A DNA stretch of 64,000 bases from Gammaproteobacteria bacterium (GTDB taxonomy: Bacteria > Pseudomonadota > Gammaproteobacteria > JADZEE01). This document shows positions 2,964 through 59,714 of the stretch, one piece after another; the first letter of the stretch is position 1; the number at the start of each line of letters is the position of its first letter. Both the position numbers and the translations under genes were made by a program. The stretch lies in the NCBI GenBank assembly GCA_965225625.1, contig CBDDBH010000022.1, positions 66,103 through 130,102 of the forward strand, read 5' to 3'. A model generated the notes under the pieces. That model did not search any database, was not told where the DNA came from, and worked only from the letters and a program-made list of their open reading frames with translations.

Positions 2964-3019
2964 TACCCCTCACTCCAAACCCCTCGCCCCTTGCGGGCGA
3001 GGGGTTTGGAGTGAGGGGT
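2964..3019. terminator. 24-bp perfect-stem hairpin (CCCCTCACTCCAAACCCCTCGCCC ... GGGCGAGGGGTTTGGAGTGAGGGG) after the epimerase gene
   Basis: Perfect inverted repeat read directly in the sequence between two co-directional minus-strand genes. Confidence 0.5.
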
Positions 3020-3023
3020 CCTT

Positions 3024-3428
3024 CTAAGCCTGTTCAATCTCTATCAAGGTGCCGCAGAAGTCCTTGGGATGCAGGAACAGCACTGGTTTGTCGTGCGCGC
3101 CAGTCGCCGGCTCGCCGCTGCCGAGAACTCGGGCGCCGGTGGCCAGAAGTTGATCGCGGGCCTGGAATATGTCGTCAACTTCGTAGCATAGATGATGTAC
3201 CCCACCGGCCGGATTGCGTTCAAGAAAGCTCGCAATCGGCGAGCCCGTGCCGAGTGGATGCAGCAGTTCGATTTTGCTGTTCGGTAATTCGACGAACACG
3301 GTGGTGACGCCATGCGCCGGCAGCGCCAGCGGCGCCGATACTGACGCACCCAGGGTTCCCCGGTAAAGTTCCGCCGCCGCGGCCAGATCCGGCACTGCAA
3401 TGGCAACGTGATTGAGGCGTCCGATCAT
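3024..3428 (-). CDS. mce: methylmalonyl-CoA epimerase (VOC/glyoxalase fold)
   Basis: MIGRLNHVAIAVPDL ... HHLCYEVDDI motifs typical of methylmalonyl-CoA epimerase; 134 aa. Confidence 0.7.
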   Translation of the reverse strand: MIGRLNHVAIAVPDLAAAAELYRGTLGASVSAPLALPAHGVTTVFVELPNSKIELLHPLGTGSPIASFLERNPAGGVHHLCYEVDDIFQARDQLLATGARVLGSGEPATGAHDKPVLFLHPKDFCGTLIEIEQA

Positions 3429-15142: not shown

Positions 15143-16258
15143 ATGATTTCTTTATCTCACGGCGGAACGTCAATTTACGCCTGTGCCGGTCCAGTACGGA
15201 AAATGCTGGTGGCGACCGTAGACGGTGTAGTTACCTTATCTCGCGACGCAGACGCTGCGCCGTGGCAGGTGAGCGCCGACGGGCTGCAGGGTAGTCATAT
15301 TGTCGGCATTGCGATCGAACCTCAAAGCGGAGCGGTTATCGCAACCAGCCATAATGCCGGTGTCGCTGTGAGTGAGGATGGCGCGGCGACATGGCAGCCG
15401 CGTAATGAAGGACTGGCCCCGTCCAACGTCTACAGCGTTGTCTGCGCCCGTAGCAACGGCCACATGCGCCTGTACGCAGGAACTGAACCGACAGGACTGT
15501 ATGTAAGCGACGATCTCGGCCGGCAGTGGACAGAAATGCCGGCATTGACCAGCGTTCCCGGCAATGAAGAGTGGATGTTTCCGCTGCCGCCTAATGATGC
15601 ACATTTAAAAAACATCACGGTGGACACCCACGATCCGCAGGTGCTGTATGCGTCCGTGGAGCAGGGGGCGTTATTGCGCAGCCGCGACGCAGGCAATAGC
15701 TGGGAGATATTCGATACCGTCGATGCCGACGTTCACCGCGTATTACTGAAATCCGATAAACGCACGATATTCGCGCCCACCGGCATGGGTGTCTATCGCA
15801 GCGACGACAACGGCGCGAACTGGATCAATATCTCACAGCAGAATGATGGACAGTTATCCCAAATCGGGTATCCGGATCCCATCGTCTGTGATCCCAACAA
15901 CGAACAATTGATGTTTGTCGCCGGTGCGGCGTCAGTACCGCCCACATGGATCCCGAACAAGTCAGCGAACTCGAAGATTGCGCGCAGCCGCGACGGCGGA
16001 GAGCACTGGCAGATCGTAAACAATGGATTGCCGCCCGTCATGGACGGTAACTTCGAAGCGATGGCGCTGGCCGCGTGGGATGGCGGCTGTGAGGTCTACC
16101 TCGGCACCACCGCTGGGGAAGTTTTCGCAAGCCACGACGAGGGTGAAAACTGGCACCAGATCGTCAACGGCATCCCTGCCGTATCCAAGAGCCTGCACTA
16201 TGTAATCGCGCACGGCGATATGGAAATGGCGATCGCAACCCCGGACCGCTTTAAATAA
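15143..16258 (+). CDS. BNR/Asp-box repeat beta-propeller protein (sialidase/Ycf48-like fold), no signal peptide
   Basis: Six SxDxGxxW repeats (SEDGAATW, SDDLGRQW, SRDAGNSW, SDDNGANW, SRDGGEHW, SHDEGENW). Confidence 0.65.
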   Translation: MISLSHGGTSIYACAGPVRKMLVATVDGVVTLSRDADAAPWQVSADGLQGSHIVGIAIEPQSGAVIATSHNAGVAVSEDGAATWQPRNEGLAPSNVYSVVCARSNGHMRLYAGTEPTGLYVSDDLGRQWTEMPALTSVPGNEEWMFPLPPNDAHLKNITVDTHDPQVLYASVEQGALLRSRDAGNSWEIFDTVDADVHRVLLKSDKRTIFAPTGMGVYRSDDNGANWINISQQNDGQLSQIGYPDPIVCDPNNEQLMFVAGAASVPPTWIPNKSANSKIARSRDGGEHWQIVNNGLPPVMDGNFEAMALAAWDGGCEVYLGTTAGEVFASHDEGENWHQIVNGIPAVSKSLHYVIAHGDMEMAIATPDRFK

Positions 16259-16280
16259 ATCGAAAATTTAATTGGGGTCT

Positions 16281-16341
16281 AATTTAATTGGGGTCAGATA
16301 CACATTTTTGCAAAAAATGTGTATCTGACCCCAATTAAATT
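16281..16341. repeat. 61-bp perfect palindrome (29-bp arms AATTTAATTGGGGTCAGATACACATTTTT / GC loop) with a third direct copy of AATTTAATTGGGGTC upstream; probable bidirectional terminator between convergent genes
   Basis: Read directly; AT-rich relative to surroundings. The right arm overlaps the stop of the MFS gene. Confidence 0.6.
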
Positions 16342-17540
16342 CGTGGCTTGGCCAGAGGCGCGATGCGGGTAAGTAATAGCAGGCTGATTACGCACGCGAT
16401 CCAGATTGCGATGACCAACAGGAAACCGGTCCGATAACTCTGTGAAGTGTCGTAAATCAGTCCGATCAATACCGGGCCGATAAACCCTGCGAAGCAGATG
16501 GTTGTTTGGAAGTATCCGTATATAGCGCTGAACGCGCGTGTACCGAAACTGCGTGACACAACCATCACCATCATCGTGCTGACCCCACCGTAGGCGATGC
16601 CGAACAGCAGGATGTAACTTACGGCCCACCAGCCAGTGGGGCCGGCAAGTACAAATACTATCGCCAGGGCGCCGCAGCTGCAGGTGCTCGCAGCCAGACG
16701 ATACGAATCGAAGTGATCGCTTGCCCAACCGCAAGACAGTCCCGAGAACATTGAGCAGACCATAATGGCGCTAACTATCAAGGAGGCGTCCTGCAATGAG
16801 TGCCCCGCATCGATAAAGAACGGCAATTGATGGGTGAGCATGGAGAAGATGCCAAACAGCAGGAAGAAGTAAACGCTTAGCAGGAACCAGAAACGGCGCG
16901 TGCGAACGACTTCGCCCGGCGTGGGTCCAATCATGTGCGATGGTCGTGGTGTTCCGTCGGCGTTGGCGACGGCGCCGTCGGGATGCAGTCCGGATTGCTG
17001 AGGGGTATCGCGCATCGCAAAAATTAGCAAAGGCAGCGCCAACGCCATCAACAATGACGCTATCAATAACGCCTCTCGCCAGCCTACGGACTCGACGATT
17101 AGGGACAATAACGGTGTAAACAGCAGGCCGCCGAGCGGCGGGCCGAGCAAGGCTATGCCGGTTGCCCGGCCGCTATAGCGATCGAACCAGTGAGTCAGGA
17201 TAGACGTTACCGGTACGTGCGCCATGCAGGCGAAAGAAACACCCAGTAGAGCGCGCAAAGCGTACAGTTGCCACAGTGCGTTCAAGCGCGACAAGGCAAG
17301 CAGGATCAGAGCGGAGGCCAGCGTCGCCGGGATCATGACGCGGCGCGGTCCGTAGCGAGCGGTCAGACGGCCCGCAAACGGCGCAGTCAAACCGATCGTC
17401 AGCAAGGTTATTGATATGCCGCCGGCAATGGCTGTTCTTGACCAGCCGAACTCGGCGGCAAAGGGTATAAAGAACACCGGAAACGCAAGGTTGCAGATGC
17501 CGCTGGCAAGCGTCATTTGCACCAGGCATACGGCTACCAT
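16335..17540 (-). CDS. MFS transporter
   Basis: 12-TM MFS topology with motif-A-like GRLTARYGPRR. Confidence 0.8.
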   Translation of the reverse strand: MVAVCLVQMTLASGICNLAFPVFFIPFAAEFGWSRTAIAGGISITLLTIGLTAPFAGRLTARYGPRRVMIPATLASALILLALSRLNALWQLYALRALLGVSFACMAHVPVTSILTHWFDRYSGRATGIALLGPPLGGLLFTPLLSLIVESVGWREALLIASLLMALALPLLIFAMRDTPQQSGLHPDGAVANADGTPRPSHMIGPTPGEVVRTRRFWFLLSVYFFLLFGIFSMLTHQLPFFIDAGHSLQDASLIVSAIMVCSMFSGLSCGWASDHFDSYRLAASTCSCGALAIVFVLAGPTGWWAVSYILLFGIAYGGVSTMMVMVVSRSFGTRAFSAIYGYFQTTICFAGFIGPVLIGLIYDTSQSYRTGFLLVIAIWIACVISLLLLTRIAPLAKPRI

Positions 17541-54511: not shown

Positions 54512-55036
54512 TTACCCTGCCTCGACCGATAAACCGATAACAACCGCCGTGGAGCAGTGATACACCGCGCTCTTGGTGCCCAGGCACCAATCGATGTCGT
54601 TGCTCTTCTGGGGACGGTACATCGGCTCTTCACGCTCGTTGCGATTACAGACACAACGGCCACAACTGCTCTTGCCACAACAATCGTTATACGAAATGAC
54701 GTAATCCTTGCCATCCGCGGGGTTGAGGCAGGTCCCTATCCAGGTGATGGGCGAGGGCTCGGTGCCAGGTGGGCATTGCGTTTGTGAACCGCCGCAACAG
54801 GCGCACAGGAAACCATCGATCGCACAATGGCGCCAGTATTCGCAGGTCCCCGGATCACCCGGATCTTCGGCGGGCCCGGGCGCGCGTGACGGCGACTCTG
54901 CGCGTGCGATCGGTAATACAGGAATGGTCGCAGCGCCGACCATGGCGGTGCCGAACTTGGATAGAAAACTGCGTCGGGAAGTCTGCCGTGCAAGGTTGCG
55001 TGAGAAACGTTCGGACCAACGGTCTAACCAGTTCAT
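54512..55036 (-). CDS. mauA: methylamine/aromatic-amine dehydrogenase light (TTQ-bearing) subunit
   Basis: Tat leader TSRRSFLSKFGTAMVGAATIPVLPIAR, near-identical in pattern to known MauA leaders. Mature domain CEYWRHCAIDG...CPPGT...YNDCCG...PMYRP...NDIDWCLG...YHC carries both TTQ tryptophans and a Cys-rich disulfide core. Confidence 0.88.
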   Translation of the reverse strand: MNWLDRWSERFSRNLARQTSRRSFLSKFGTAMVGAATIPVLPIARAESPSRAPGPAEDPGDPGTCEYWRHCAIDGFLCACCGGSQTQCPPGTEPSPITWIGTCLNPADGKDYVISYNDCCGKSSCGRCVCNRNEREEPMYRPQKSNDIDWCLGTKSAVYHCSTAVVIGLSVEAG

Positions 55037-55071
55037 AGTGTGAAGCCTCGTTGCGGTAACAGATTGCAGTC

Positions 55072-56214
55072 TTAGGGAGTTTGGATCACGGTCAGCGTAC
55101 TGGTCGCGCTCAGTTCAACACCGCGCAGACGTTTACCGGTTTTTGCGTCTAACACCTGTAGTTCCGGGCTTTCCAAATTGACGGTATACAGTAGTGGTTT
55201 GTCGTCGCTGCTCACGTTGACCGAGGTCGCATGATGTTCTAGTTCGATACGCTGCACACGCTTCTTTGAGACAAGGTCGTATACCCAGATCTGCTCGGCC
55301 GGTGCTTTGTGTGAGCCGGGCCCGCCCTGATGCATAAGCACGTACATCCTTTTGCTCGCGCTGTGGATGGCGAAGAGCTGATAGCCACCAGGCAGCCAGT
55401 TGTCGGTGCGATCAGCGTCTGTTTGCAGTGACCATGGTTTGGCCAATTTCGGGGTTGCGCCGGCGCCGTCGAATGCGTAGACATCGCCCTGGAAGGATAG
55501 GAAATACCACGTCGAACCGTCTCTTACCGCATCCTCATTGACCAGATCCTTGGACGGGTCGAAAAGCTGTTTGCTCCGCGACTTCTTCGCCGCCTTGCCT
55601 GTATCGTCCAGCGTAATGGTCAGCAGGCTGCCGTCGGCACAAAGCATATGTACGTTGCGCGCATCGCCCGGGTATACGAAAGCGCAGCCGGCCGTGTCGA
55701 TCTCGCCAATGAATTTGCGCGCTTTGGTATCGACTACGGTCACAGTTTGCGCCGGCGTGAAGTTGTAGCTGAGCAGAAAACGGTCGTCGTCGGTTAAACC
55801 CATGTGCACGAGCGTGGGGATACTCAACAGTTGTTTCGGCGGCAAGATTACCTCGCCAACGGCGTCCAGAGTCGTTGGATCGAAGATGCTGAGTACGTCC
55901 GTGCGTACCCCGCGGGTGCCGCGCGAATAAAATGTATCGGTCGAATAGATGACGCTGTAGTCCGAAGGCATCAGCAGCGCATCGTGGAAGCCGCCGGTGG
56001 ACAACATGCCCAGGACGGAGCCATCGTCTGCGTTCACCAGGTAGGCGCGACCGTCGATCATGTTGAAAAAGGCGATGTCGTTAACCCAGACCCAGTGCGG
56101 GTCGAGTTTCGCCGGTAGTTTGGCAACGCTGATCTGTTCAGGTTTCAGTTCCGCCTGTGACACCGATGACCAGAAGATCAAACTTAGCGCGAGGACTGAG
56201 AATAGTCGTGCCAT
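55072..56214 (-). CDS. mauB: amine dehydrogenase heavy subunit (7-bladed beta-propeller)
   Basis: Sec signal MARLFSVLALSLIFWSSVSQA. A 380 aa propeller-sized protein 36 bp upstream of mauA in the same orientation. Confidence 0.7.
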   Translation of the reverse strand: MARLFSVLALSLIFWSSVSQAELKPEQISVAKLPAKLDPHWVWVNDIAFFNMIDGRAYLVNADDGSVLGMLSTGGFHDALLMPSDYSVIYSTDTFYSRGTRGVRTDVLSIFDPTTLDAVGEVILPPKQLLSIPTLVHMGLTDDDRFLLSYNFTPAQTVTVVDTKARKFIGEIDTAGCAFVYPGDARNVHMLCADGSLLTITLDDTGKAAKKSRSKQLFDPSKDLVNEDAVRDGSTWYFLSFQGDVYAFDGAGATPKLAKPWSLQTDADRTDNWLPGGYQLFAIHSASKRMYVLMHQGGPGSHKAPAEQIWVYDLVSKKRVQRIELEHHATSVNVSSDDKPLLYTVNLESPELQVLDAKTGKRLRGVELSATSTLTVIQTP

Positions 56215-56320
56215 AGTGCTATCCGCCTAGTGTGGTGAAGCTGAGAACATGAATTGTCGTGGGTTCACTCGTGCGTATCAAGTGGTTGCCGTACCAGCAG
56301 GCCGGCGGGCCAGATAATCA

Positions 56321-57127
56321 TCAAGCTTGCTCCCACCAACTGATGACCTGCCAGGTATTGCCGTCCACTGCCGGCAACGCCCGTTCGCCGGTTTTGTAGT
56401 CCGCCAGCCAACTCAGGGCAAGCGTTTCACCTTCGCGCCACGGCAACGTTGACAGTCGAATTATGTAGTCGTCGTCTGCAGAATCGCGCTGCGTGTAAGA
56501 GAATTCGCAATCGACCAACGCCCTCACTACATCGAGATCCTCTTTTGCCAGCTCTGCCAATATCGGCAGGGCAACTTCGGCATCGATGGGTTGCACACGA
56601 TCGCGCGCGAACACTGCGTGCGTGTCGGTTACCAACAGGCAGGTCTTCGACGCAGCGTTTTCCAGTACGAGGTGTGCGGCGAATGATTGCGATGCAGATT
56701 CCACTCGCCAGTCTTCTTCGTAGGCACCACTTGGCGCCCACTCGATCATGCAAGCGTTGTTCTCGCACCATTGGAACCAACCCGGCTCTGGAAAATTGAC
56801 GACGGGTTGCAGCGTAAAACCATGCCCACCGGGCGCCCAGTTCGCGGTCGGATACGGCTTCGCGTCCACGTCGCAGGTTGTTATCACACAGGAGCAATCT
56901 TGCGCCGCCAGTGCCAATAATTCGTCATAGTTGCACGCGGCGAGCGCATCACGGTCGGACAAATCTGGACGGTCCGCGGGGATCCGCATGTCGGCGGCTG
57001 CGGACGAGGTTTGCAACCACAGCACGCGCGTGGAGGTGTCTTCGTCACCGTTTTTGTAACGAATGTATCGCCGTCGCCAGCAACCGATCATCTCGGCGGG
57101 GACGGTGGGGGCGGCCTTATTCTGCAT
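56321..57127 (-). CDS. Cys-rich cytoplasmic hypothetical protein at the head of the mauBA transcription unit
   Basis: 268 aa, no signal peptide, Cys clusters (DCSCVITTCD, WCENNACMIEW), no CxxCH; no family recognised. Confidence 0.45.
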   Translation of the reverse strand: MQNKAAPTVPAEMIGCWRRRYIRYKNGDEDTSTRVLWLQTSSAAADMRIPADRPDLSDRDALAACNYDELLALAAQDCSCVITTCDVDAKPYPTANWAPGGHGFTLQPVVNFPEPGWFQWCENNACMIEWAPSGAYEEDWRVESASQSFAAHLVLENAASKTCLLVTDTHAVFARDRVQPIDAEVALPILAELAKEDLDVVRALVDCEFSYTQRDSADDDYIIRLSTLPWREGETLALSWLADYKTGERALPAVDGNTWQVISWWEQA

Positions 57128-57160
57128 TTGATTCTGTTTGATCGAGGGAAGGTTTTATTA

Positions 57161-57423
57161 CCCCTCACCCGACCGCCATGGATGGCGGAAATGCAGGTAA
57201 TGCAGGAGCATTTACCTGCCAGCCCTCTCCCGCCAAGGGAGAGGGAGTTGTATAGGCCTCCCGCAAGGGGAGAAGGGACCCGTGGTTTTAGCCCCTTTCC
57301 CTTTGCGGGAGAGGGGTTGGCAACCGCTTCTCGGCTCTAGCTCCTGCTTCGCTCTAGCTCCTAGGTCCTGTAGTCGTGCGTTGTCTGCATTTCCGCCATC
57401 CATGACGGTCGGGTGAGGGGTCT
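57161..57423. mobile_element. MITE-like element (~265 bp) with 37-bp terminal inverted repeats ACCCCTCACCCGACCGCCATGGATGGCGGAAATGCAG (36/37 match) and internal nested hairpins plus a GCTCTAGCTCCT tandem repeat
   Basis: Read directly. The arms themselves contain the palindrome CCGCCATGGATGGCGG. The element fills the intergenic region between the hypothetical gene start and the agmatinase stop. Confidence 0.55.
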
Positions 57424-57425
57424 AT

Positions 57426-58433
57426 CTATTTTTTCCCAGCAAGATTCTCCGCGGTCAGGCAAAGGATCTCATACATAATTTGTTTCCCGGCTTGCGCGGT
57501 ATTGGTCGTTGCGTCGTATTCTGGTGCGACTTCGACGAGGTCGCCGCCGATGATGTCCAGTCCGCGCAAACCGCGCAGGATCTGTTGTGATTCGCGCGTG
57601 GTCAGACCACCGGTTTCCGGCGTTCCTGTCCCGGGCGCGTACACAGGATCCAGGCCGTCCACGTCAAAGCTGACATAGGTCGGGCCGTCGCCCACTACTT
57701 CGCGTGCTTTGGCGATGGTTGCGTCAACGCCCATTTTTACGAAGTCCTCTATATGAATGACCGTCATGCCCGATTCGTAGGAAAACTCCCAATAGGGTTC
57801 GGCCGCGCCACGAATACCGATCTGGATGGTGCGTTCGGGATCCAGCACGCCAGCGAGTACCGCGTTACGGAACGGACCACCGTGGTGAAATTTGTGATCA
57901 TCAAACCCACCCATGGTGTCGCAGTGCGCGTCGAAATGGACCAGCCCGACCGGTTCGTCGCGGCCCAGCGCCTTGAGAATAGGGAAGGTAATCGAATGGT
58001 CTCCACCGGCGGAAACGCACCTGATGCCTTTGTCCATTACACCGTGGTAATACTCTTCGATGGTGGCGATACCTTTTTCCAGGCTGAAGCCGAACAGCGG
58101 CACATCGCCCGCGTCCGCGATCTTGCACAGCGCGAACGGATTAACGGTCGTCTGGTGGTTGTACGGCCCGACCGACATTGACATGTCACGGATGGCCCTG
58201 GGACCGAAGCGCGCGCCCGGGCGGTGGACGACGCCGCGATCGAAGGGCACGCCGATGAGAGCGATGTCTAATTCGTCGAGGTTCTCGTTGTAGTCGGCGT
58301 CGAGCAGCGTGCGGATACCAACATAAAGCTTGCCGGCAGTTAGCATAGCTGCGGCGAACTCCGGGTTGTCGACCTCGTCTAAAGGACGATCAGCGTATTT
58401 CGCTCTTAATGCTTCCAGTTTCTTTTGATCCAT
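57426..58433 (-). CDS. agmatinase/guanidino-acid hydrolase (arginase family, ureohydrolase)
   Basis: Arginase-family motifs GGDHSITFP, DAHCDT, SFDVDGLDPVYAPGTGTP and IQIGIRG, with no frame breaks. Confidence 0.85.
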   Translation of the reverse strand: MDQKKLEALRAKYADRPLDEVDNPEFAAAMLTAGKLYVGIRTLLDADYNENLDELDIALIGVPFDRGVVHRPGARFGPRAIRDMSMSVGPYNHQTTVNPFALCKIADAGDVPLFGFSLEKGIATIEEYYHGVMDKGIRCVSAGGDHSITFPILKALGRDEPVGLVHFDAHCDTMGGFDDHKFHHGGPFRNAVLAGVLDPERTIQIGIRGAAEPYWEFSYESGMTVIHIEDFVKMGVDATIAKAREVVGDGPTYVSFDVDGLDPVYAPGTGTPETGGLTTRESQQILRGLRGLDIIGGDLVEVAPEYDATTNTAQAGKQIMYEILCLTAENLAGKK

Positions 58434-58517
58434 AGCCTCGTCTCGATTTGTTGCGCATGGTTTGGATGGGTGTCTGCGCCAATATGCGCCAATCGCGATA
58501 CGCCCGCCAGCGACAAA

Positions 58518-59588
58518 CTACCCTTTGTCCGGCGCCTTCCAGATATCGCGCTCCTGCATAAGTGCTATTTGGCGATCGCCGATTTCTTGCTTGTACCAGT
58601 CATGGTTACCCGGGACTTTGTCCAGGTAAAGATTCTTGGGGTAAATCGGCTGTTCGTATATGAGTTGCGCCATCTCGGTCCGTACGTCTTTCATGAAGTT
58701 GGTTATCTGCGCGCTGGCCCGATGATGCCGTAGCGCTTCAATGTTTATCGGGCCTGACACAAACGTCGAGCCGTTGGTATCGCGCTGTTTGCCGACGATA
58801 GTGCCACGGTAATCGACAATCATCGATTGGCCGCCACCAGCGTCAATGCCGGTTTCGCTGTCCGGAAACAAGTGATAACTACCGATGTTCGGCGCGACGA
58901 CATACATGTTGTTATCGAGCGCGCGGGCGCGGTTGGTTATCTCGAACGCATCGTTTTGAGTAAATGGCGCTGGGGTGGATCCTCGATACACGACTTCGGC
59001 GCCGTTCATCGCCAGTCCTCGCCCGTTCTCCGGATAACTGCCCTCAATGGCCATCATGATCCCAAGTCGTCCGATCTCGGTGTCCGCCACCGGCCAGAAG
59101 GCATTGAGAGTGCGGCCGTATTTTTCGACCCACCAGTCGAACAGGTCGTGCGGCGATACCGAGCGTTCGCAAGGTGCCAGTGGCGTGACTTTGTGATGCT
59201 TTAAGATCACCTCGCCGTGGGGATCAATGACGAAGCCGACGTTGAAGAATAAATCTTTCCAGTCCTCGTGCCGGGCTTTCGCCTGGGCCATGATGTAGAC
59301 GTTGTACTCTTTGGCAAGCTCGCCTAGCTGGTCGGTTTCCGGACCTGGAATATCGATGGCGCAGGTTCGAGTGTACTCAGCATGGTCGGCGTCCAGCGCC
59401 TCGTCATTGAAGCCCTGTAGAGCGCCTTCGGGTATGACGAGCAGACGCACCGGGATATCGAGGTTCGACAGCCAGAACGCGGCTTTGGTCAGACTTTGCA
59501 GATGATCTAGGTTCTTTTGAATGTCTTCGCGCTTACGGATCCCCCAGAAGGTGGGGATGAGGCCAACGGCGTTATACGGTTCGATCAT
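58518..59588 (-). CDS. formamidase/aliphatic-amidase homologue (nitrilase superfamily, AmiF-like) with catalytic Cys replaced by Ala
   Basis: Aligns along its length to AmiF-type formamidase (LVIPEGALQGFN Glu motif; VIDPHGEVILKHHK Lys motif). The Cys position in the motif xICHDGxIPE reads MAIEGSYPE (codon GCC). Likely start MIEPYNAV. Confidence 0.6.
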   Translation of the reverse strand: MIEPYNAVGLIPTFWGIRKREDIQKNLDHLQSLTKAAFWLSNLDIPVRLLVIPEGALQGFNDEALDADHAEYTRTCAIDIPGPETDQLGELAKEYNVYIMAQAKARHEDWKDLFFNVGFVIDPHGEVILKHHKVTPLAPCERSVSPHDLFDWWVEKYGRTLNAFWPVADTEIGRLGIMMAIEGSYPENGRGLAMNGAEVVYRGSTPAPFTQNDAFEITNRARALDNNMYVVAPNIGSYHLFPDSETGIDAGGGQSMIVDYRGTIVGKQRDTNGSTFVSGPINIEALRHHRASAQITNFMKDVRTEMAQLIYEQPIYPKNLYLDKVPGNHDWYKQEIGDRQIALMQERDIWKAPDKG

Positions 59589-59714
59589 TGTCAACTCCTC
59601 GAATAATCCTGCACTCTTTATATATATGCTGGCACCCAAGCGCTACCAGCGCGTCTCGCCAGCGAGTATCGCGCCGGTTTACACTTAGCTTTCACGTCCC
59701 AGAGCAGAACAACA

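What the first reader, a model, noticed from the sequence alone, without database searches (positions are those of the whole stretch)
57161..57423. MITE-like intergenic element with 37-bp near-perfect terminal inverted repeats and nested internal hairpins
A ~265 bp non-coding element is bounded by inverted repeats ACCCCTCACCCGACCGCCATGGATGGCGGAAATGCAG (36/37 match). It contains further hairpins (CCCTCTCCCGCCAAGGGAGAGGG; an imperfect CCCGCAAGGGGAGAAGGG/CCCTTTCCCTTTGCGGG pair) and a GCTCTAGCTCCT tandem. A partial extra copy of the arm end (TCTGCATTT) lies just outside the left arm. The element sits between the agmatinase stop and the promoter region of the mau-associated gene, where it could act as a terminator or promoter, or be a non-autonomous transposon.
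Basis: seen in the sequence. Interest (0 to 1): 0.55.

Follow-up and report, generated by a model that had tools for sequence, protein, structure and literature searches.

The report
Nested hairpin-repeat mosaic, not a transposon
The 262-bp inverted-repeat element is real, but it is a pile-up of two different families of small hairpin-forming intergenic repeats rather than a miniature transposon; one family is an undescribed two-hairpin module conserved across many Gammaproteobacteria.

Summary
Arms 57160-57196 and 57385-57421 match 36/37, and the 262-bp element folds far better than shuffled sequence on both strands (z about -11).

The MITE reading is only partly right:
- There is no target-site duplication.
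- There is no second copy in the 64-kb window, and no exact arm in JGI metagenomes.
- The "TIR" is a fusion of parts from two unrelated repeat families.

The outer 11 bp (ACCCCTCACCC/GGGTGAGGGGT) and the inner CCCTCTCCC..GGGAGAGGG hairpins belong to a very widespread hairpin family (at least 120 metagenome contigs). They also sit at the same site in a relative (flanking protein 72% identical) that lacks the arms.

The inner 26 bp of each arm is the start of a 55-67-nt module: hairpin CCGCC-ATGGAT-GGCGG, AAAT, then an 11-bp hairpin with an AGGA loop. About 110 true copies were found across Gammaproteobacteria. Stems co-vary, GGA loops are near-invariant, and copies are intergenic and rare between divergent genes. 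There is no linked gene and no Rfam or literature match.

The window holds one full module (+) and one truncated inverted copy (-).

Best reading: a BIME/ERIC-like mosaic made by nested insertion. It probably acts only as a large hairpin. Mobilising enzyme and function are unknown.

The parts
57160..57421 (.). The whole composite element (262 bp): a long imperfect palindrome between the agmatinase stop (57426) and the start of the 268-aa gene (57127).
57160..57170 (+). 5' half of the outer stem, ACCCCTCACCC. This is the head motif of the widespread 'A/C' hairpin family.
   Evidence: The same 9-mer bounds the 55-bp hairpin at 2965-3019: 4 occurrences in the window, 0.28 expected. It is present at the orthologous site in L126 and in at least 120 metagenome contigs.
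57411..57421 (+). 3' half of the outer stem, GGGTGAGGGGT.
57163..57229 (+). Full copy of the two-hairpin 'GGA module'. P1 is CCGCC(57173-57177)-ATGGAT-GGCGG(57184-57188). The linker AAAT is 57189-57192. P2 is 57193-57203 / 57208-57219, with one bulged T and loop AGGA at 57204-57207. Unlike most family members, this copy lacks a local closing stem P0; the distant outer stem takes that place.
   Evidence: Covariance model R1 scores it 63.9 bits, E = 1.4e-18.
57364..57418 (-). Truncated, inverted second copy of the module. P1 and the linker are kept (arm 57385-57410). The P2 position is degenerate: 7 of 11 matches just past the arm, then unrelated sequence.
   Evidence: R1 scores it 28.5 bits, E = 4.3e-07; the 48-nt extended inverted repeat is.
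57223..57245 (.). C-type hairpin CCCTCTCCC-GCCAA-GGGAGAGGG. It is absent from the orthologous locus.
57258..57315 (.). Pair of C-type hairpins (CTCCCGCAAGGGGAGAAGGG .. CCCCTTTCCCTTTGCGGGAGAGGG). These are shared with the orthologous locus L126 at roughly 80% identity by eye over about 66 nt, including the non-palindromic linker.
57327..57360 (+). Two tandem 17-nt units (82% identical) carrying GCTCTAGCTCCT. They are part of the 89-nt block that is extra relative to the orthologous locus.
57426..58433 (-). Upstream gene: agmatinase. Its stop codon lies 4 nt from the element.
56321..57127 (-). Downstream gene: conserved 268-aa protein of unknown function. Its start lies 32 nt from the element.
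2965..3019 (.). Second, simple member of the A/C hairpin family in the window: ACCCCTCAC-TCCAAA-CCCCTCGCCC-CTTGC-GGGCGAGGGG-TTTGGA-GTGAGGGGT.

Best explanation
The element is a mosaic of small hairpin-forming intergenic repeats, comparable to BIME or ERIC-type structures. It is not a transposase-dependent MITE.

Proposed origin:
- A pre-existing palindromic repeat of the widespread 'A/C' family occupied this intergenic site. That repeat has an outer stem ACCCCTCACC / GGTGAGGGGT enclosing CCCCTCTCCC..GGGAGAGGGG hairpins.
- In the lineage of the window, two blocks of about 85-89 nt were added just inside the two halves of the outer stem.
- Each block starts, at the same distance from the stem, with a second repeat: a gammaproteobacterial two-hairpin 'GGA module'.
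- The apparent 37-bp 'terminal inverted repeat' is therefore 11 bp of old stem plus 26 bp of the module start, present in inverted orientation on both sides.

Shown: the anatomy, the two families and their distributions, the covariation, the arm-less state at the orthologous site, and the absence of a target-site duplication and of linked genes.

Inferred:
- The symmetry arose in one of two ways. Either the module entered the same sequence on both strands of a palindromic target, or one insertion was copied to the other arm by hairpin-templated repair or template switching. The second route would explain why identity drops sharply from 97% inside the 37-nt stem to 64% just beyond it.
- In the cell the element acts only through its very stable hairpin. 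It would lie in the read-through transcript between the agmatinase gene and the next gene, for example as a barrier to 3'-exonucleases or a processing site, as shown for REP and ERIC elements (own knowledge), and possibly in single-stranded DNA.
- The modules are spread by an enzyme encoded elsewhere in the genome.
For: Structure in the window:
- The arms and nested hairpins are real and far beyond chance.
- Both strands fold equally well (-169 and -177 kcal/mol).

The GGA module is a family:
About 110 true copies lie in Halomonas/Vreelandella, Thalassolituus, Microbulbifer, Oceanisphaera, Zobellella, Pseudohongiella, Cellvibrionaceae, Lysobacterales and others.
- Stems co-vary: 84% of cells paired against 70.5% in shuffles and at most 52% when partners are slid; 286 double-change cells against 114.
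- The closing stem P0 has a median duplex energy of -10.7 against -4.1 kcal/mol for mismatched partners, p = 4e-28.
- The P2 loop keeps GGA in nearly all of the 107 aligned copies while neighbouring loop bases vary.
- Model R1 finds exactly one full and one truncated copy in the window.

Repeat-like behaviour of the module:
- Different neighbours at every locus and no recurrent flanking protein.
- 85 of 92 scorable sites are downstream of at least one gene; only 7 lie between divergent genes.
- Tandem arrays occur (L018, L100, L022) and inverted pairs occur (L042, L107, L117).
- The module is present or absent within copies of a larger Thalassolituus repeat.

Outer stem and inner hairpins:
- They form a separate family found in at least 120 metagenome contigs, none of which carries the GGA module in 597 kb.

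Orthologous locus:
- L126-L128 share the gene order, and the flanking protein is 72% identical.
- They have ACCCCTCACC-[C hairpins]-GGATGAGGGGT without either arm.

Other:
- No target-site duplication.
- No promoter-like or terminator-like site.
- No Rfam family.
Against: - The copy number of the composite, or of either family, in the source genome could not be measured.
- The shared inner hairpins at the orthologous site could be independent insertions of the same repeat rather than inheritance.
- No clean empty-site versus filled-site pair was found for the module, so insertion is inferred, not seen.
- The module is low-copy (about 1-10 per genome; 2 places in a 1.8-Mb Halomonas replicon) yet conserved across orders. 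That fits a host function at least as well as a selfish repeat.
- A hairpin-only function does not explain the near-invariant GGA loops.
- No expression data are available.
Confidence: 0.6

Rival explanations
1. It is a classical MITE: a non-autonomous derivative of a DDE-type insertion sequence. The transposase would bind the 37-bp terminal inverted repeats, and the element would move as one 262-bp unit.
For: - The size (262 bp), the lack of coding capacity and the 36/37 terminal inverted repeat fit the usual description of 70-300 bp elements with TIRs (PMC3733652).
- Short-read assemblies of the same organism break inside the element from both sides (L004, L005, L130). A genomic repeat could cause this.
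Against: - No target-site duplication.
- No second copy in 64 kb.
- 0 exact arms in JGI metagenomes.
- The arm is a junction of two families that occur apart elsewhere.
- The orthologous site has the interior and outer stem without the arms.
- No transposase was found near any family member.
- The assembly breaks fall at different positions in unique interior sequence. They are as well explained by poor coverage of a hairpin of about -170 kcal/mol.
Confidence: 0.08
2. The conserved core is a protein-binding RNA module. Its two hairpins present GGA in their loops, the signature of CsrA/RsmA binding sites. Copies in transcripts, including the one here, would recruit or titrate CsrA and so affect the stability or translation of neighbouring mRNAs. 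The inverted repeat would be incidental.
For: - The P1 loop with its closing pairs reads C-AUGGAU-G. This fits the CANGGANG core of the published RsmE/CsrA consensus (own knowledge).
- The P2 loop is AGGA or NGGA in nearly all of the 107 aligned copies, while flanking loop bases vary.
- Most diverged copies outside the seed set still keep GGA in both loops: AGGGAC, AAGGAU, AUGGAG in P1 and CAAGGAG, CAUGGAG in P2.
- The two GGAs are 25 nt apart, within the range bridged by a CsrA dimer (own knowledge).
- Stems co-vary around conserved loops.
- The module is low-copy but conserved across orders, unlike typical lineage-specific REPs.
- Head-to-tail arrays (L022, L018, L100) resemble CsrB/RsmZ architecture.
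Against: - There is no consistent orientation relative to transcription. Overall 24 copies are sense and 32 antisense in co-directional regions. Halomonas-type copies run 4:23 and the others 20:9.
- G.U pairs are not clearly favoured over A.C in the stems, so neither strand is marked as the RNA strand.
- No promoter or terminator travels with the module.
- In the window the full module is antisense to both flanking genes.
- No Rfam CsrB/Rsm family matches.
Confidence: 0.15
3. It is a REPIN-like doublet: two inverted REP-type units that a single-copy tyrosine (HUH) transposase (RAYT or TIRYT) mobilises as single-stranded DNA hairpins.
For: - The inverted doublet forms one long hairpin.
- There is no target-site duplication, as expected for IS200/IS605-type transposition (own knowledge).
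- Copies are extragenic, mostly downstream of genes, as for REPs (PMC3733652 abstract).
- P2 carries a conserved bulged T, reminiscent of the imperfect palindromes IS608 TnpA recognises (own knowledge).
- The outer end GGGGTGAG fits the GGGGWSAS motif reported in TIRs flanking TIRYT genes (PMC3733652 section 16).
Against: - Neither family carries the GTAG or CGTC tag of the two REP super-families.
- Most module copies are singlets, not doublets.
- Copy number is low.
- The module sequence is shared across orders, whereas REPIN populations are lineage-specific (PMC3116915 abstract; own knowledge).
- A motif search found no RAYT-like ORF in about 1.4 Mb of fetched loci or in the window.
- The GGGGWSAS fit is an after-the-fact match of 8 degenerate bases.
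Confidence: 0.12
4. It is a locus-specific regulatory structure, such as an attenuator, terminator or operator between the agmatinase gene and the amine-dehydrogenase-like operon. Any resemblance to repeats would be incidental.
For: - It lies exactly between two co-directional genes.
- It is a single copy in the window.
- The related species also has hairpins at this site.
Against: - Every component has many relatives at unrelated loci.
- There is no terminator-like U-run and no promoter-like site.
- The relative's intergenic region differs in exactly the parts that form the long stem.
Confidence: 0.05

Closest known systems
BIMEs (bacterial interspersed mosaic elements: clusters of REP units with other short motifs) and Rhizobium RIMEs
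   Same: It is an extragenic mosaic of several short palindromic units in both orientations. It lies downstream of genes, lacks coding capacity and lacks a target-site duplication. Units also occur singly elsewhere (definition from PMC3733652).
   Different: The units are not GTAG- or CGTC-tagged REPs. One unit is a three-way junction of about 67 nt rather than a simple 20-40-bp palindrome. Copy numbers are far lower than for E. coli or Pseudomonas REPs.
ERIC / IRU elements of Enterobacteriaceae and Vibrio (about 127-bp imperfect palindromes)
   Same: From my own knowledge of ERIC: it is an imperfect palindrome in transcribed intergenic regions. It occurs in either orientation and at low to moderate, variable copy number. 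Its sequence is conserved across many genera although copies are not at orthologous sites, and enlarged versions arise by internal insertions. The GGA module family shows all of these features.
   Different: There is no sequence similarity. The host range differs (Oceanospirillales, Cellvibrionales, Alteromonadales, Aeromonadales, Xanthomonadales). The conserved part here is a pair of hairpin loops with variable stems, not a conserved terminal inverted repeat.
REPINs (inverted REP doublets mobilised by RAYTs; Bertels and Rainey 2011, PMC3116915)
   Same: Two inverted units plus a spacer form one long hairpin in ssDNA or RNA. The element is non-autonomous and has no duplication of the target.
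   Different: Doublets are the exception in this family. No RAYT link was found. There is no GTAG tag. The second unit here is truncated.
Bacterial MITEs (Correia/NEMIS, RUP, Nezha, MITEAba12)
   Same: Size range, lack of coding capacity, terminal inverted repeat, and insertion next to genes.
   Different: There is no target-site duplication and no parental IS. The TIR is not shared by other family members and is a chimera of two repeat families.
TIR repeat families flanking TIRYT tyrosine-transposase genes (Di Nocera et al. 2013, PMC3733652)
   Same: The outer end GGGGTGAG fits their GGGGWSAS motif. Those TIR repeats also occur as moderately abundant singles, dimers or clusters.
   Different: No TIRYT gene was found next to any copy. 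In four metagenome contigs the motif instead abuts a DUF559 endonuclease gene.
CsrB / RsmY / RsmZ-type CsrA-sequestering RNAs
   Same: Hairpins display GGA in their loops, and some copies form head-to-tail arrays.
   Different: There is no dedicated promoter or terminator, no fixed orientation and no Rfam match. Copies are dispersed rather than forming one or a few sRNA genes.

Membership tests
MITE | Terminal inverted repeats of about 15-30 bp or more on a 70-300-bp non-coding element | tested here: met
   36/37 arms on a 262-bp element. A 63-aa ORF (57212-57403, -) lies inside it but was not tested.
MITE | Direct duplication of the target site flanking the element | tested here: not met
   The flanks are ..TTTTATT and CTATCTA.. 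with no shared direct repeat adjacent to the ends.
MITE | Multiple copies with the same ends in the genome | tested here: inconclusive
   There is one copy in 64 kb and 0 exact arms in JGI metagenomes. The rest of the source genome could not be searched.
MITE | A parental IS or transposase whose ends match the TIR | tested here: inconclusive
   No recurrent neighbouring protein was found at about 120 module loci or 120 A/C loci. This does not exclude a transposase encoded elsewhere.
REP / BIME | Short imperfect palindromes, extragenic, mainly between co-directional and convergent genes | tested here: met
   Of 92 module sites, 85 are co-directional or convergent and 7 are divergent. The description of REPs is from PMC3733652.
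REP / BIME | Unpaired GTAG or CGTC tag at one end | tested here: not met
   The module starts CTGACCGCC, and the A/C family starts ACCCCTCAC. Neither end carries a tag.
REP / BIME | High copy number (tens to hundreds per genome) | tested here: inconclusive
   Exact-core hits are 1-7 per genome. There are 2 places in a 1.8-Mb Halomonas replicon and up to 5 in one 7-kb contig (L022). Diverged copies genome-wide were not countable.
REPIN / RAYT system | Inverted doublets are the predominant, better conserved form | tested here: not met
   Most of the 112 model hits are singlets. Only the window, L042, L107 and L117 show inverted pairs.
REPIN / RAYT system | A cognate RAYT gene flanked by the repeat | not testable with these tools
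   Whole genomes were not available. A motif search of the fetched loci found none.
ERIC-like conserved intergenic palindrome | Sequence conserved across genera at non-orthologous intergenic sites, in either orientation | tested here: met
Intrinsic terminator | GC-rich hairpin followed by a U-run on the transcribed strand | tested here: not met
   There are 0 terminator-like sites in 56900-57700. On the - strand the stem is followed by AAUAAAACC.
CsrA-binding RNA (CsrB/Rsm type) | GGA motifs exposed in hairpin loops | tested here: met
   The P1 loop is AUGGAU in all 107 seed copies (it lies within the 18-mer used to find them). The P2 loop keeps NGGA in nearly all of them. Both loops are kept in most diverged copies.
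CsrA-binding RNA (CsrB/Rsm type) | Transcribed in the GGA orientation, from its own promoter or in a fixed orientation in mRNAs | tested here: not met
   Orientation is mixed and opposite in two subfamilies. The stems show no strand asymmetry.
Known RNA families (Rfam 15) | Match at or near the gathering score | tested here: not met
   Only weak chance-level hits were found in the window, and nothing but a tRNA in nine loci.

The most novel reading that the evidence does not exclude
The 55-67-nt two-hairpin module (CCGCC-AUGGAU-GGCGG, AAAU, 11-bp stem with an AGGA loop, closed by a variable stem) is an undescribed functional nucleic-acid element of Gammaproteobacteria. It would be a dispersed docking site for a conserved GGA-reading protein, with CsrA/RsmA as the obvious candidate. 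It would spread like a repeat but be kept for its binding function. Elements such as the one in this window would then plug neighbouring genes into a global post-transcriptional network.
Probability: 0.15. Interest if true: 0.75.

Novelty: new variant of a known kind. Interest (0 to 1): 0.45.

Why it matters
For this locus, the result removes a false lead. The element is not evidence of a recent transposon insertion or of a dedicated regulator of the amine-dehydrogenase-like operon.

More generally, the work exposed a structured module that:
- is conserved across at least five gammaproteobacterial orders;
- has covarying stems and near-invariant GGA loops;
- is absent from Rfam and from the searchable literature.

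Like ERIC, it combines repeat-like dispersal with unexpectedly strong sequence conservation, a combination that has never been explained mechanistically. The nested, symmetric way it sits inside an older palindrome is also a clean example of how long 'terminal inverted repeats' can arise without any transposase. This is a caution for MITE-finding software.

Tried and rejected
- Rfam at permissive thresholds, on the element, on the second hairpin and on nine related loci, gave only chance-level hits.
- Full-text search for the arm, module and A/C sequences found nothing relevant. A search for CsrA + GGA + REP found no paper.
- The hammerhead-ribozyme idea was considered because of the CUGA..GAAA three-way junction. 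I rejected it by inspection: the G8/A9 core positions are missing and no Rfam ribozyme model matched.
- Plasmid and phage collections: the module occurs only on a Halomonas 1.8-Mb chromid (2 places) and in no phage. It is not plasmid or phage cargo.
- Recurrent neighbouring genes were sought by all-against-all BLAST of flanking ORFs. None turned up for either family.
- A motif search for RAYT-like proteins in all fetched DNA gave 0 hits.
- A Pfam scan of the 56 window ORFs showed metabolic families and no transposase among the 25 of 69 matched families that were listed.
- Strand-of-function tests were inconclusive or negative. These were gene orientation and G.U against A.C counts.
- I first read the Logan contig breaks inside the element as a sign of a multi-copy repeat. 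I set this aside because the break points differ and lie in unique sequence.
- The 9-mer TCTGCATTT outside the left arm was judged to be chance.
Full report
**Observation**

The sequence is as described. ACCCCTCACCCGACCGCCATGGATGGCGGAAATGCAG lies at 57160-57196, and its reverse complement lies at 57385-57421 with one mismatch. No other match exists in the window at up to 3 mismatches, and none is expected by chance. Weaker complementarity extends the arms to 48 nt.

The interior holds three CCCTCTCCC..GGGAGAGGG-type hairpins and two 17-nt tandem units. Both strands fold into one long branched hairpin. The mRNA-sense (-) strand gives -169 kcal/mol with z = -11.2, and the + strand gives -177 kcal/mol with z = -10.9.

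The element fills most of the 298-bp gap between two genes on the - strand:
- The stop codon of an agmatinase gene (57426-58433).
- The start codon of a conserved 268-aa gene of unknown function (56321-57127). A methylamine-dehydrogenase-like heavy and light chain pair follows it.

The 'extra' TCTGCATTT at 57122-57130 is a 9-mer that overlaps that start codon. I regard it as chance.

**The arm is a chimera of two repeat families**

The outermost 9 nt (ACCCCTCAC / GTGAGGGGT) also bound a simple 55-bp hairpin at 2965-3019. That hairpin's inner stem, CCCCTCGCCC..GGGCGAGGGG, resembles the inner hairpins of the element. The 9-mer occurs four times in the window, only at these four ends, against 0.28 expected.

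The inner 26 nt of the arm behaves quite differently. A plasmid search hit a Halomonas chromid with GACCGCCATGGATGGCGGAAATGC followed by a hairpin. A scan of one genome per species with CATGGATGGCGGAAATGC then reached its 120-locus limit. About 110 of these hits are true homologues. They come from Halomonas/Vreelandella, Chromohalobacter, Salinicola, Thalassolituus, Microbulbifer, Marinimicrobium, Oceanisphaera, Zobellella, Pseudohongiella, Kangiella, Cellvibrionaceae, Porticoccaceae, Lysobacterales/Rhodanobacteraceae and unclassified Gammaproteobacteria. Six hits are chance matches inside coding sequence.

**The 'GGA module'**

The aligned copies show a three-way junction, made of these parts in order:
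- A closing stem P0 of 5-10 bp, with variable sequence.
- The junction CUGA.
- Hairpin P1, CCGCC-AUGGAU-GGCGG.
- The linker AAAU.
- Hairpin P2, 11 bp with one bulged T and an AGGA (or NGGA) loop.
- GCC, then the 3' strand of P0.

The structure is supported by covariation:

| Measure | Observed | Control |
|---|---|---|
| Cells paired | 84% | 70.5% in column shuffles; at most 52% when partners are slid |
| Cells with changes on both sides | 286 | 114 |

For P0, which MAFFT cannot keep in register, true 5'/3' flank pairs have a median duplex energy of -10.7 kcal/mol. Flanks swapped between copies give -4.1 (p = 4e-28). In the P2 loop, GGA is kept in nearly all of the 107 copies while its neighbours vary. 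Most diverged copies found later keep GGA in both loops, and one shows a compensatory change in P1 (CGAC/GUCG).

A covariance model (R1) finds exactly two matches in the 64-kb window:
- A full module at 57163-57229 (+), 63.9 bits.
- A truncated inverted copy at 57364-57418 (-), 28.5 bits. It keeps P1 and the linker but has lost P2.

**How the module behaves elsewhere**

- It has no fixed neighbours. All-against-all comparison of 512 flanking ORFs gave only small clusters, which I did not identify, and no transposase was seen.
- Of 92 sites with a called gene on both sides, 29 lie between convergent genes, 56 between co-directional genes and only 7 between divergent genes. This is the placement known for REPs (PMC3733652).
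- Orientation relative to transcription is not fixed. Overall 24 copies are sense and 32 antisense. The long-hairpin Halomonas subfamily shows 4:23 and the other lineages 20:9.
- G.U pairs are not clearly favoured over A.C pairs, so neither strand is marked as an RNA strand.
- Copy number is low. There are 1-7 exact-core hits per genome, 2 places in a 1.8-Mb Halomonas replicon, and no hit in phages or in any other of 72,556 plasmids. One soil Gammaproteobacteria MAG, however, has five copies in 7 kb, including a head-to-tail 55-nt array at a contig end.
- Inverted pairs like the one in the window recur in Pseudohongiella (L042, L107) and in L117. Tandem pairs occur in L018, L100 and L104.
- In Thalassolituus and relatives the module is present or absent at either end of a roughly 700-bp repeat, so it behaves as an insertable unit. 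The junctions are not clean and show no duplication.
- In Halomonas it sits in the apex of a roughly 170-nt hairpin whose outer stems also co-vary between copies.
- No Rfam family matches, and no paper in the library contains the sequence.

**The outer stem family ('A/C')**

A gapped pattern, ACCCCTCAC-N4-8-CCCCTCNCCC-N2-8-GGGNGAGGGG, again hit the 120-contig limit. This time the hits were in soil, sediment, freshwater and even gut metagenomes. Usually only the 5' ACCCCTCACCCC head plus one hairpin is present. In some copies the complementary GGGGTGAGGGG closes the structure, as it does in the window.

None of 597 kb of these contigs contains the GGA module, so the two families are independent. 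They have no recurrent neighbour either. In four contigs, however, a DUF559 (Vsr-like endonuclease) gene ends in the motif or is flanked by it.

The end GGGGTGAG fits the GGGGWSAS motif that Di Nocera et al. reported in inverted repeats flanking TIRYT tyrosine-transposase genes (PMC3733652). Both links are leads, not tests.

**The orthologous locus**

The 268-aa protein has a 72%-identical homologue in ENA assemblies with the same gene order: nitrilase-family gene, agmatinase, this gene, then the dehydrogenase subunits. There the intergenic region is 188 bp. It reads ..ACCCCTCACC-CCAACCCCTCTCCCCAGGGAGAGGGGCTAGAACTCGGGTCCCTTCTCCCTCGGGAGAAGGACA-GGATGAGGGGT...

The outer stem and about 66 nt of inner hairpins, including their non-palindromic linker, therefore match the window. 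Both arms are missing. Relative to it the window has two extra blocks:
- An 89-nt block between ACCCCTCACC and CCAACCCC.
- A block of about 85 nt between the last shared hairpin and GGGTGAGGGGT.

Each block begins, next to the old stem, with the start of the GGA module. The 37-bp 'TIR' is thus 11 bp of old stem plus 26 bp of module.

**Interpretation**

The element is a nested mosaic of hairpin repeats. It is closest in kind to BIMEs and, for the module family, to ERIC elements. It is not a transposase-type MITE, for these reasons:
- There is no target duplication.
- There is no second copy in the window, and the exact arm had 0 matches in JGI metagenomes.
- There is no parental IS.
- Other family members do not share the TIR.

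I cannot tell how the symmetric arrangement arose. Two routes are plausible. Insertion next to the same sequence on both strands of a palindromic target is one. A single insertion copied across the hairpin by template switching is the other. The abrupt fall from 97% identity within the stem to 64% just beyond it favours ongoing homogenisation of, or selection on, the paired part.

No promoter-like or terminator-like site is present. The most likely cellular effect is that of a very stable hairpin in the read-through transcript between agmatinase and the next gene. This is inferred by analogy with REP and ERIC and is not shown here.

The short-read contigs that stop inside the element from both sides are compatible with a repeat. 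They are equally compatible with poor coverage of a strong hairpin.

**What remains open**

The near-invariant GGA loops, the covarying stems, the low copy number and the conservation across orders are not what a purely selfish repeat predicts. They suggest a conserved binding partner. CsrA/RsmA is the obvious candidate, because the P1 loop fits its CANGGANG consensus (own knowledge). Mixed orientation and the lack of strand asymmetry argue against a simple RNA role. I give this reading about 15%.

**Verdict**

- The MITE interpretation is partly supported: the element is repeat-derived, but it is not a MITE.
- Novelty is that of a new variant of a known kind.
- Interest is moderate. It comes mainly from the undescribed module family rather than from this particular locus.

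Noticed in passing
window 2965-3019: A 55-bp near-perfect hairpin, ACCCCTCAC-TCCAAA-CCCCTCGCCC-CTTGC-GGGCGAGGGG-TTTGGA-GTGAGGGGT, lies between two - strand genes (1748-2863 and 3024-3428). It is a simple member of the family that supplies the outer stem of the studied element.
   Followed up: yes
In four contigs a DUF559 (Vsr-like endonuclease) gene ends in it or is flanked by inverted copies. The end GGGGTGAG fits the GGGGWSAS motif of TIRYT-associated repeats (PMC3733652).
   Followed up: partly
window 16265-16341: A perfect 29-bp palindrome (AATTTAATTGGGGTCAGATACACATTTTT / AAA / reverse complement), plus a third 15-nt half copy just upstream, lies between convergent genes (15143-16255 + and 16335-17537 -). 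It may be a bidirectional terminator or another repeat.
   Followed up: no
L063, L115, L090, L092, L075, L117, L055 (Thalassolituus, Oceanospirillaceae and related MAGs): A roughly 700-bp multi-copy repeat has inverted ends CACTGCTGTCCCACAAAT.. / ..TGTGGGACAGCAGTG. It is rich in CATCCATG-type hairpins and breaks assemblies. The GGA module is present or absent near either end.
   Followed up: partly
L022 7058-7174; L098 7474-7558: L022 has a head-to-tail array of 55-nt GGA modules running off a contig end in a soil Gammaproteobacteria MAG, with five modules in 7 kb. In Salinicola (L098), the P2 stem is expanded by three tandem AGAAAATGC units.
   Followed up: partly
L004, L005, L130 (Logan assemblies of the same organism): Short-read contigs end inside the element from both sides (about 52-56 nt in from the agmatinase side and 27 nt in from the other side), leaving the interior unassembled. 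The cause is either a hairpin-related coverage gap or a repeat.
   Followed up: partly
window 54512-59639: The gene cluster runs nitrilase-family gene, agmatinase, 268-aa unknown, then TTQ-dehydrogenase-like heavy and light chains. The heavy chain scores well below the methylamine-dehydrogenase equivalog cutoff (210 against 454 bits). The enzyme may therefore act on another amine (agmatine- or putrescine-related?). The 268-aa protein has 265 homologues and no Pfam domain.
   Followed up: no
L001 and about 40 Halomonas/Vreelandella/Chromohalobacter loci: In Halomonadaceae the module is embedded in a roughly 170-nt long hairpin. Its outer stems (for example GTGCGAGGGCAGGTT / AACCTGCCCTCGCAC) differ between copies with compensatory changes. 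These copies are mostly antisense to the gene whose 3' end they follow (23 against 4).
   Followed up: partly
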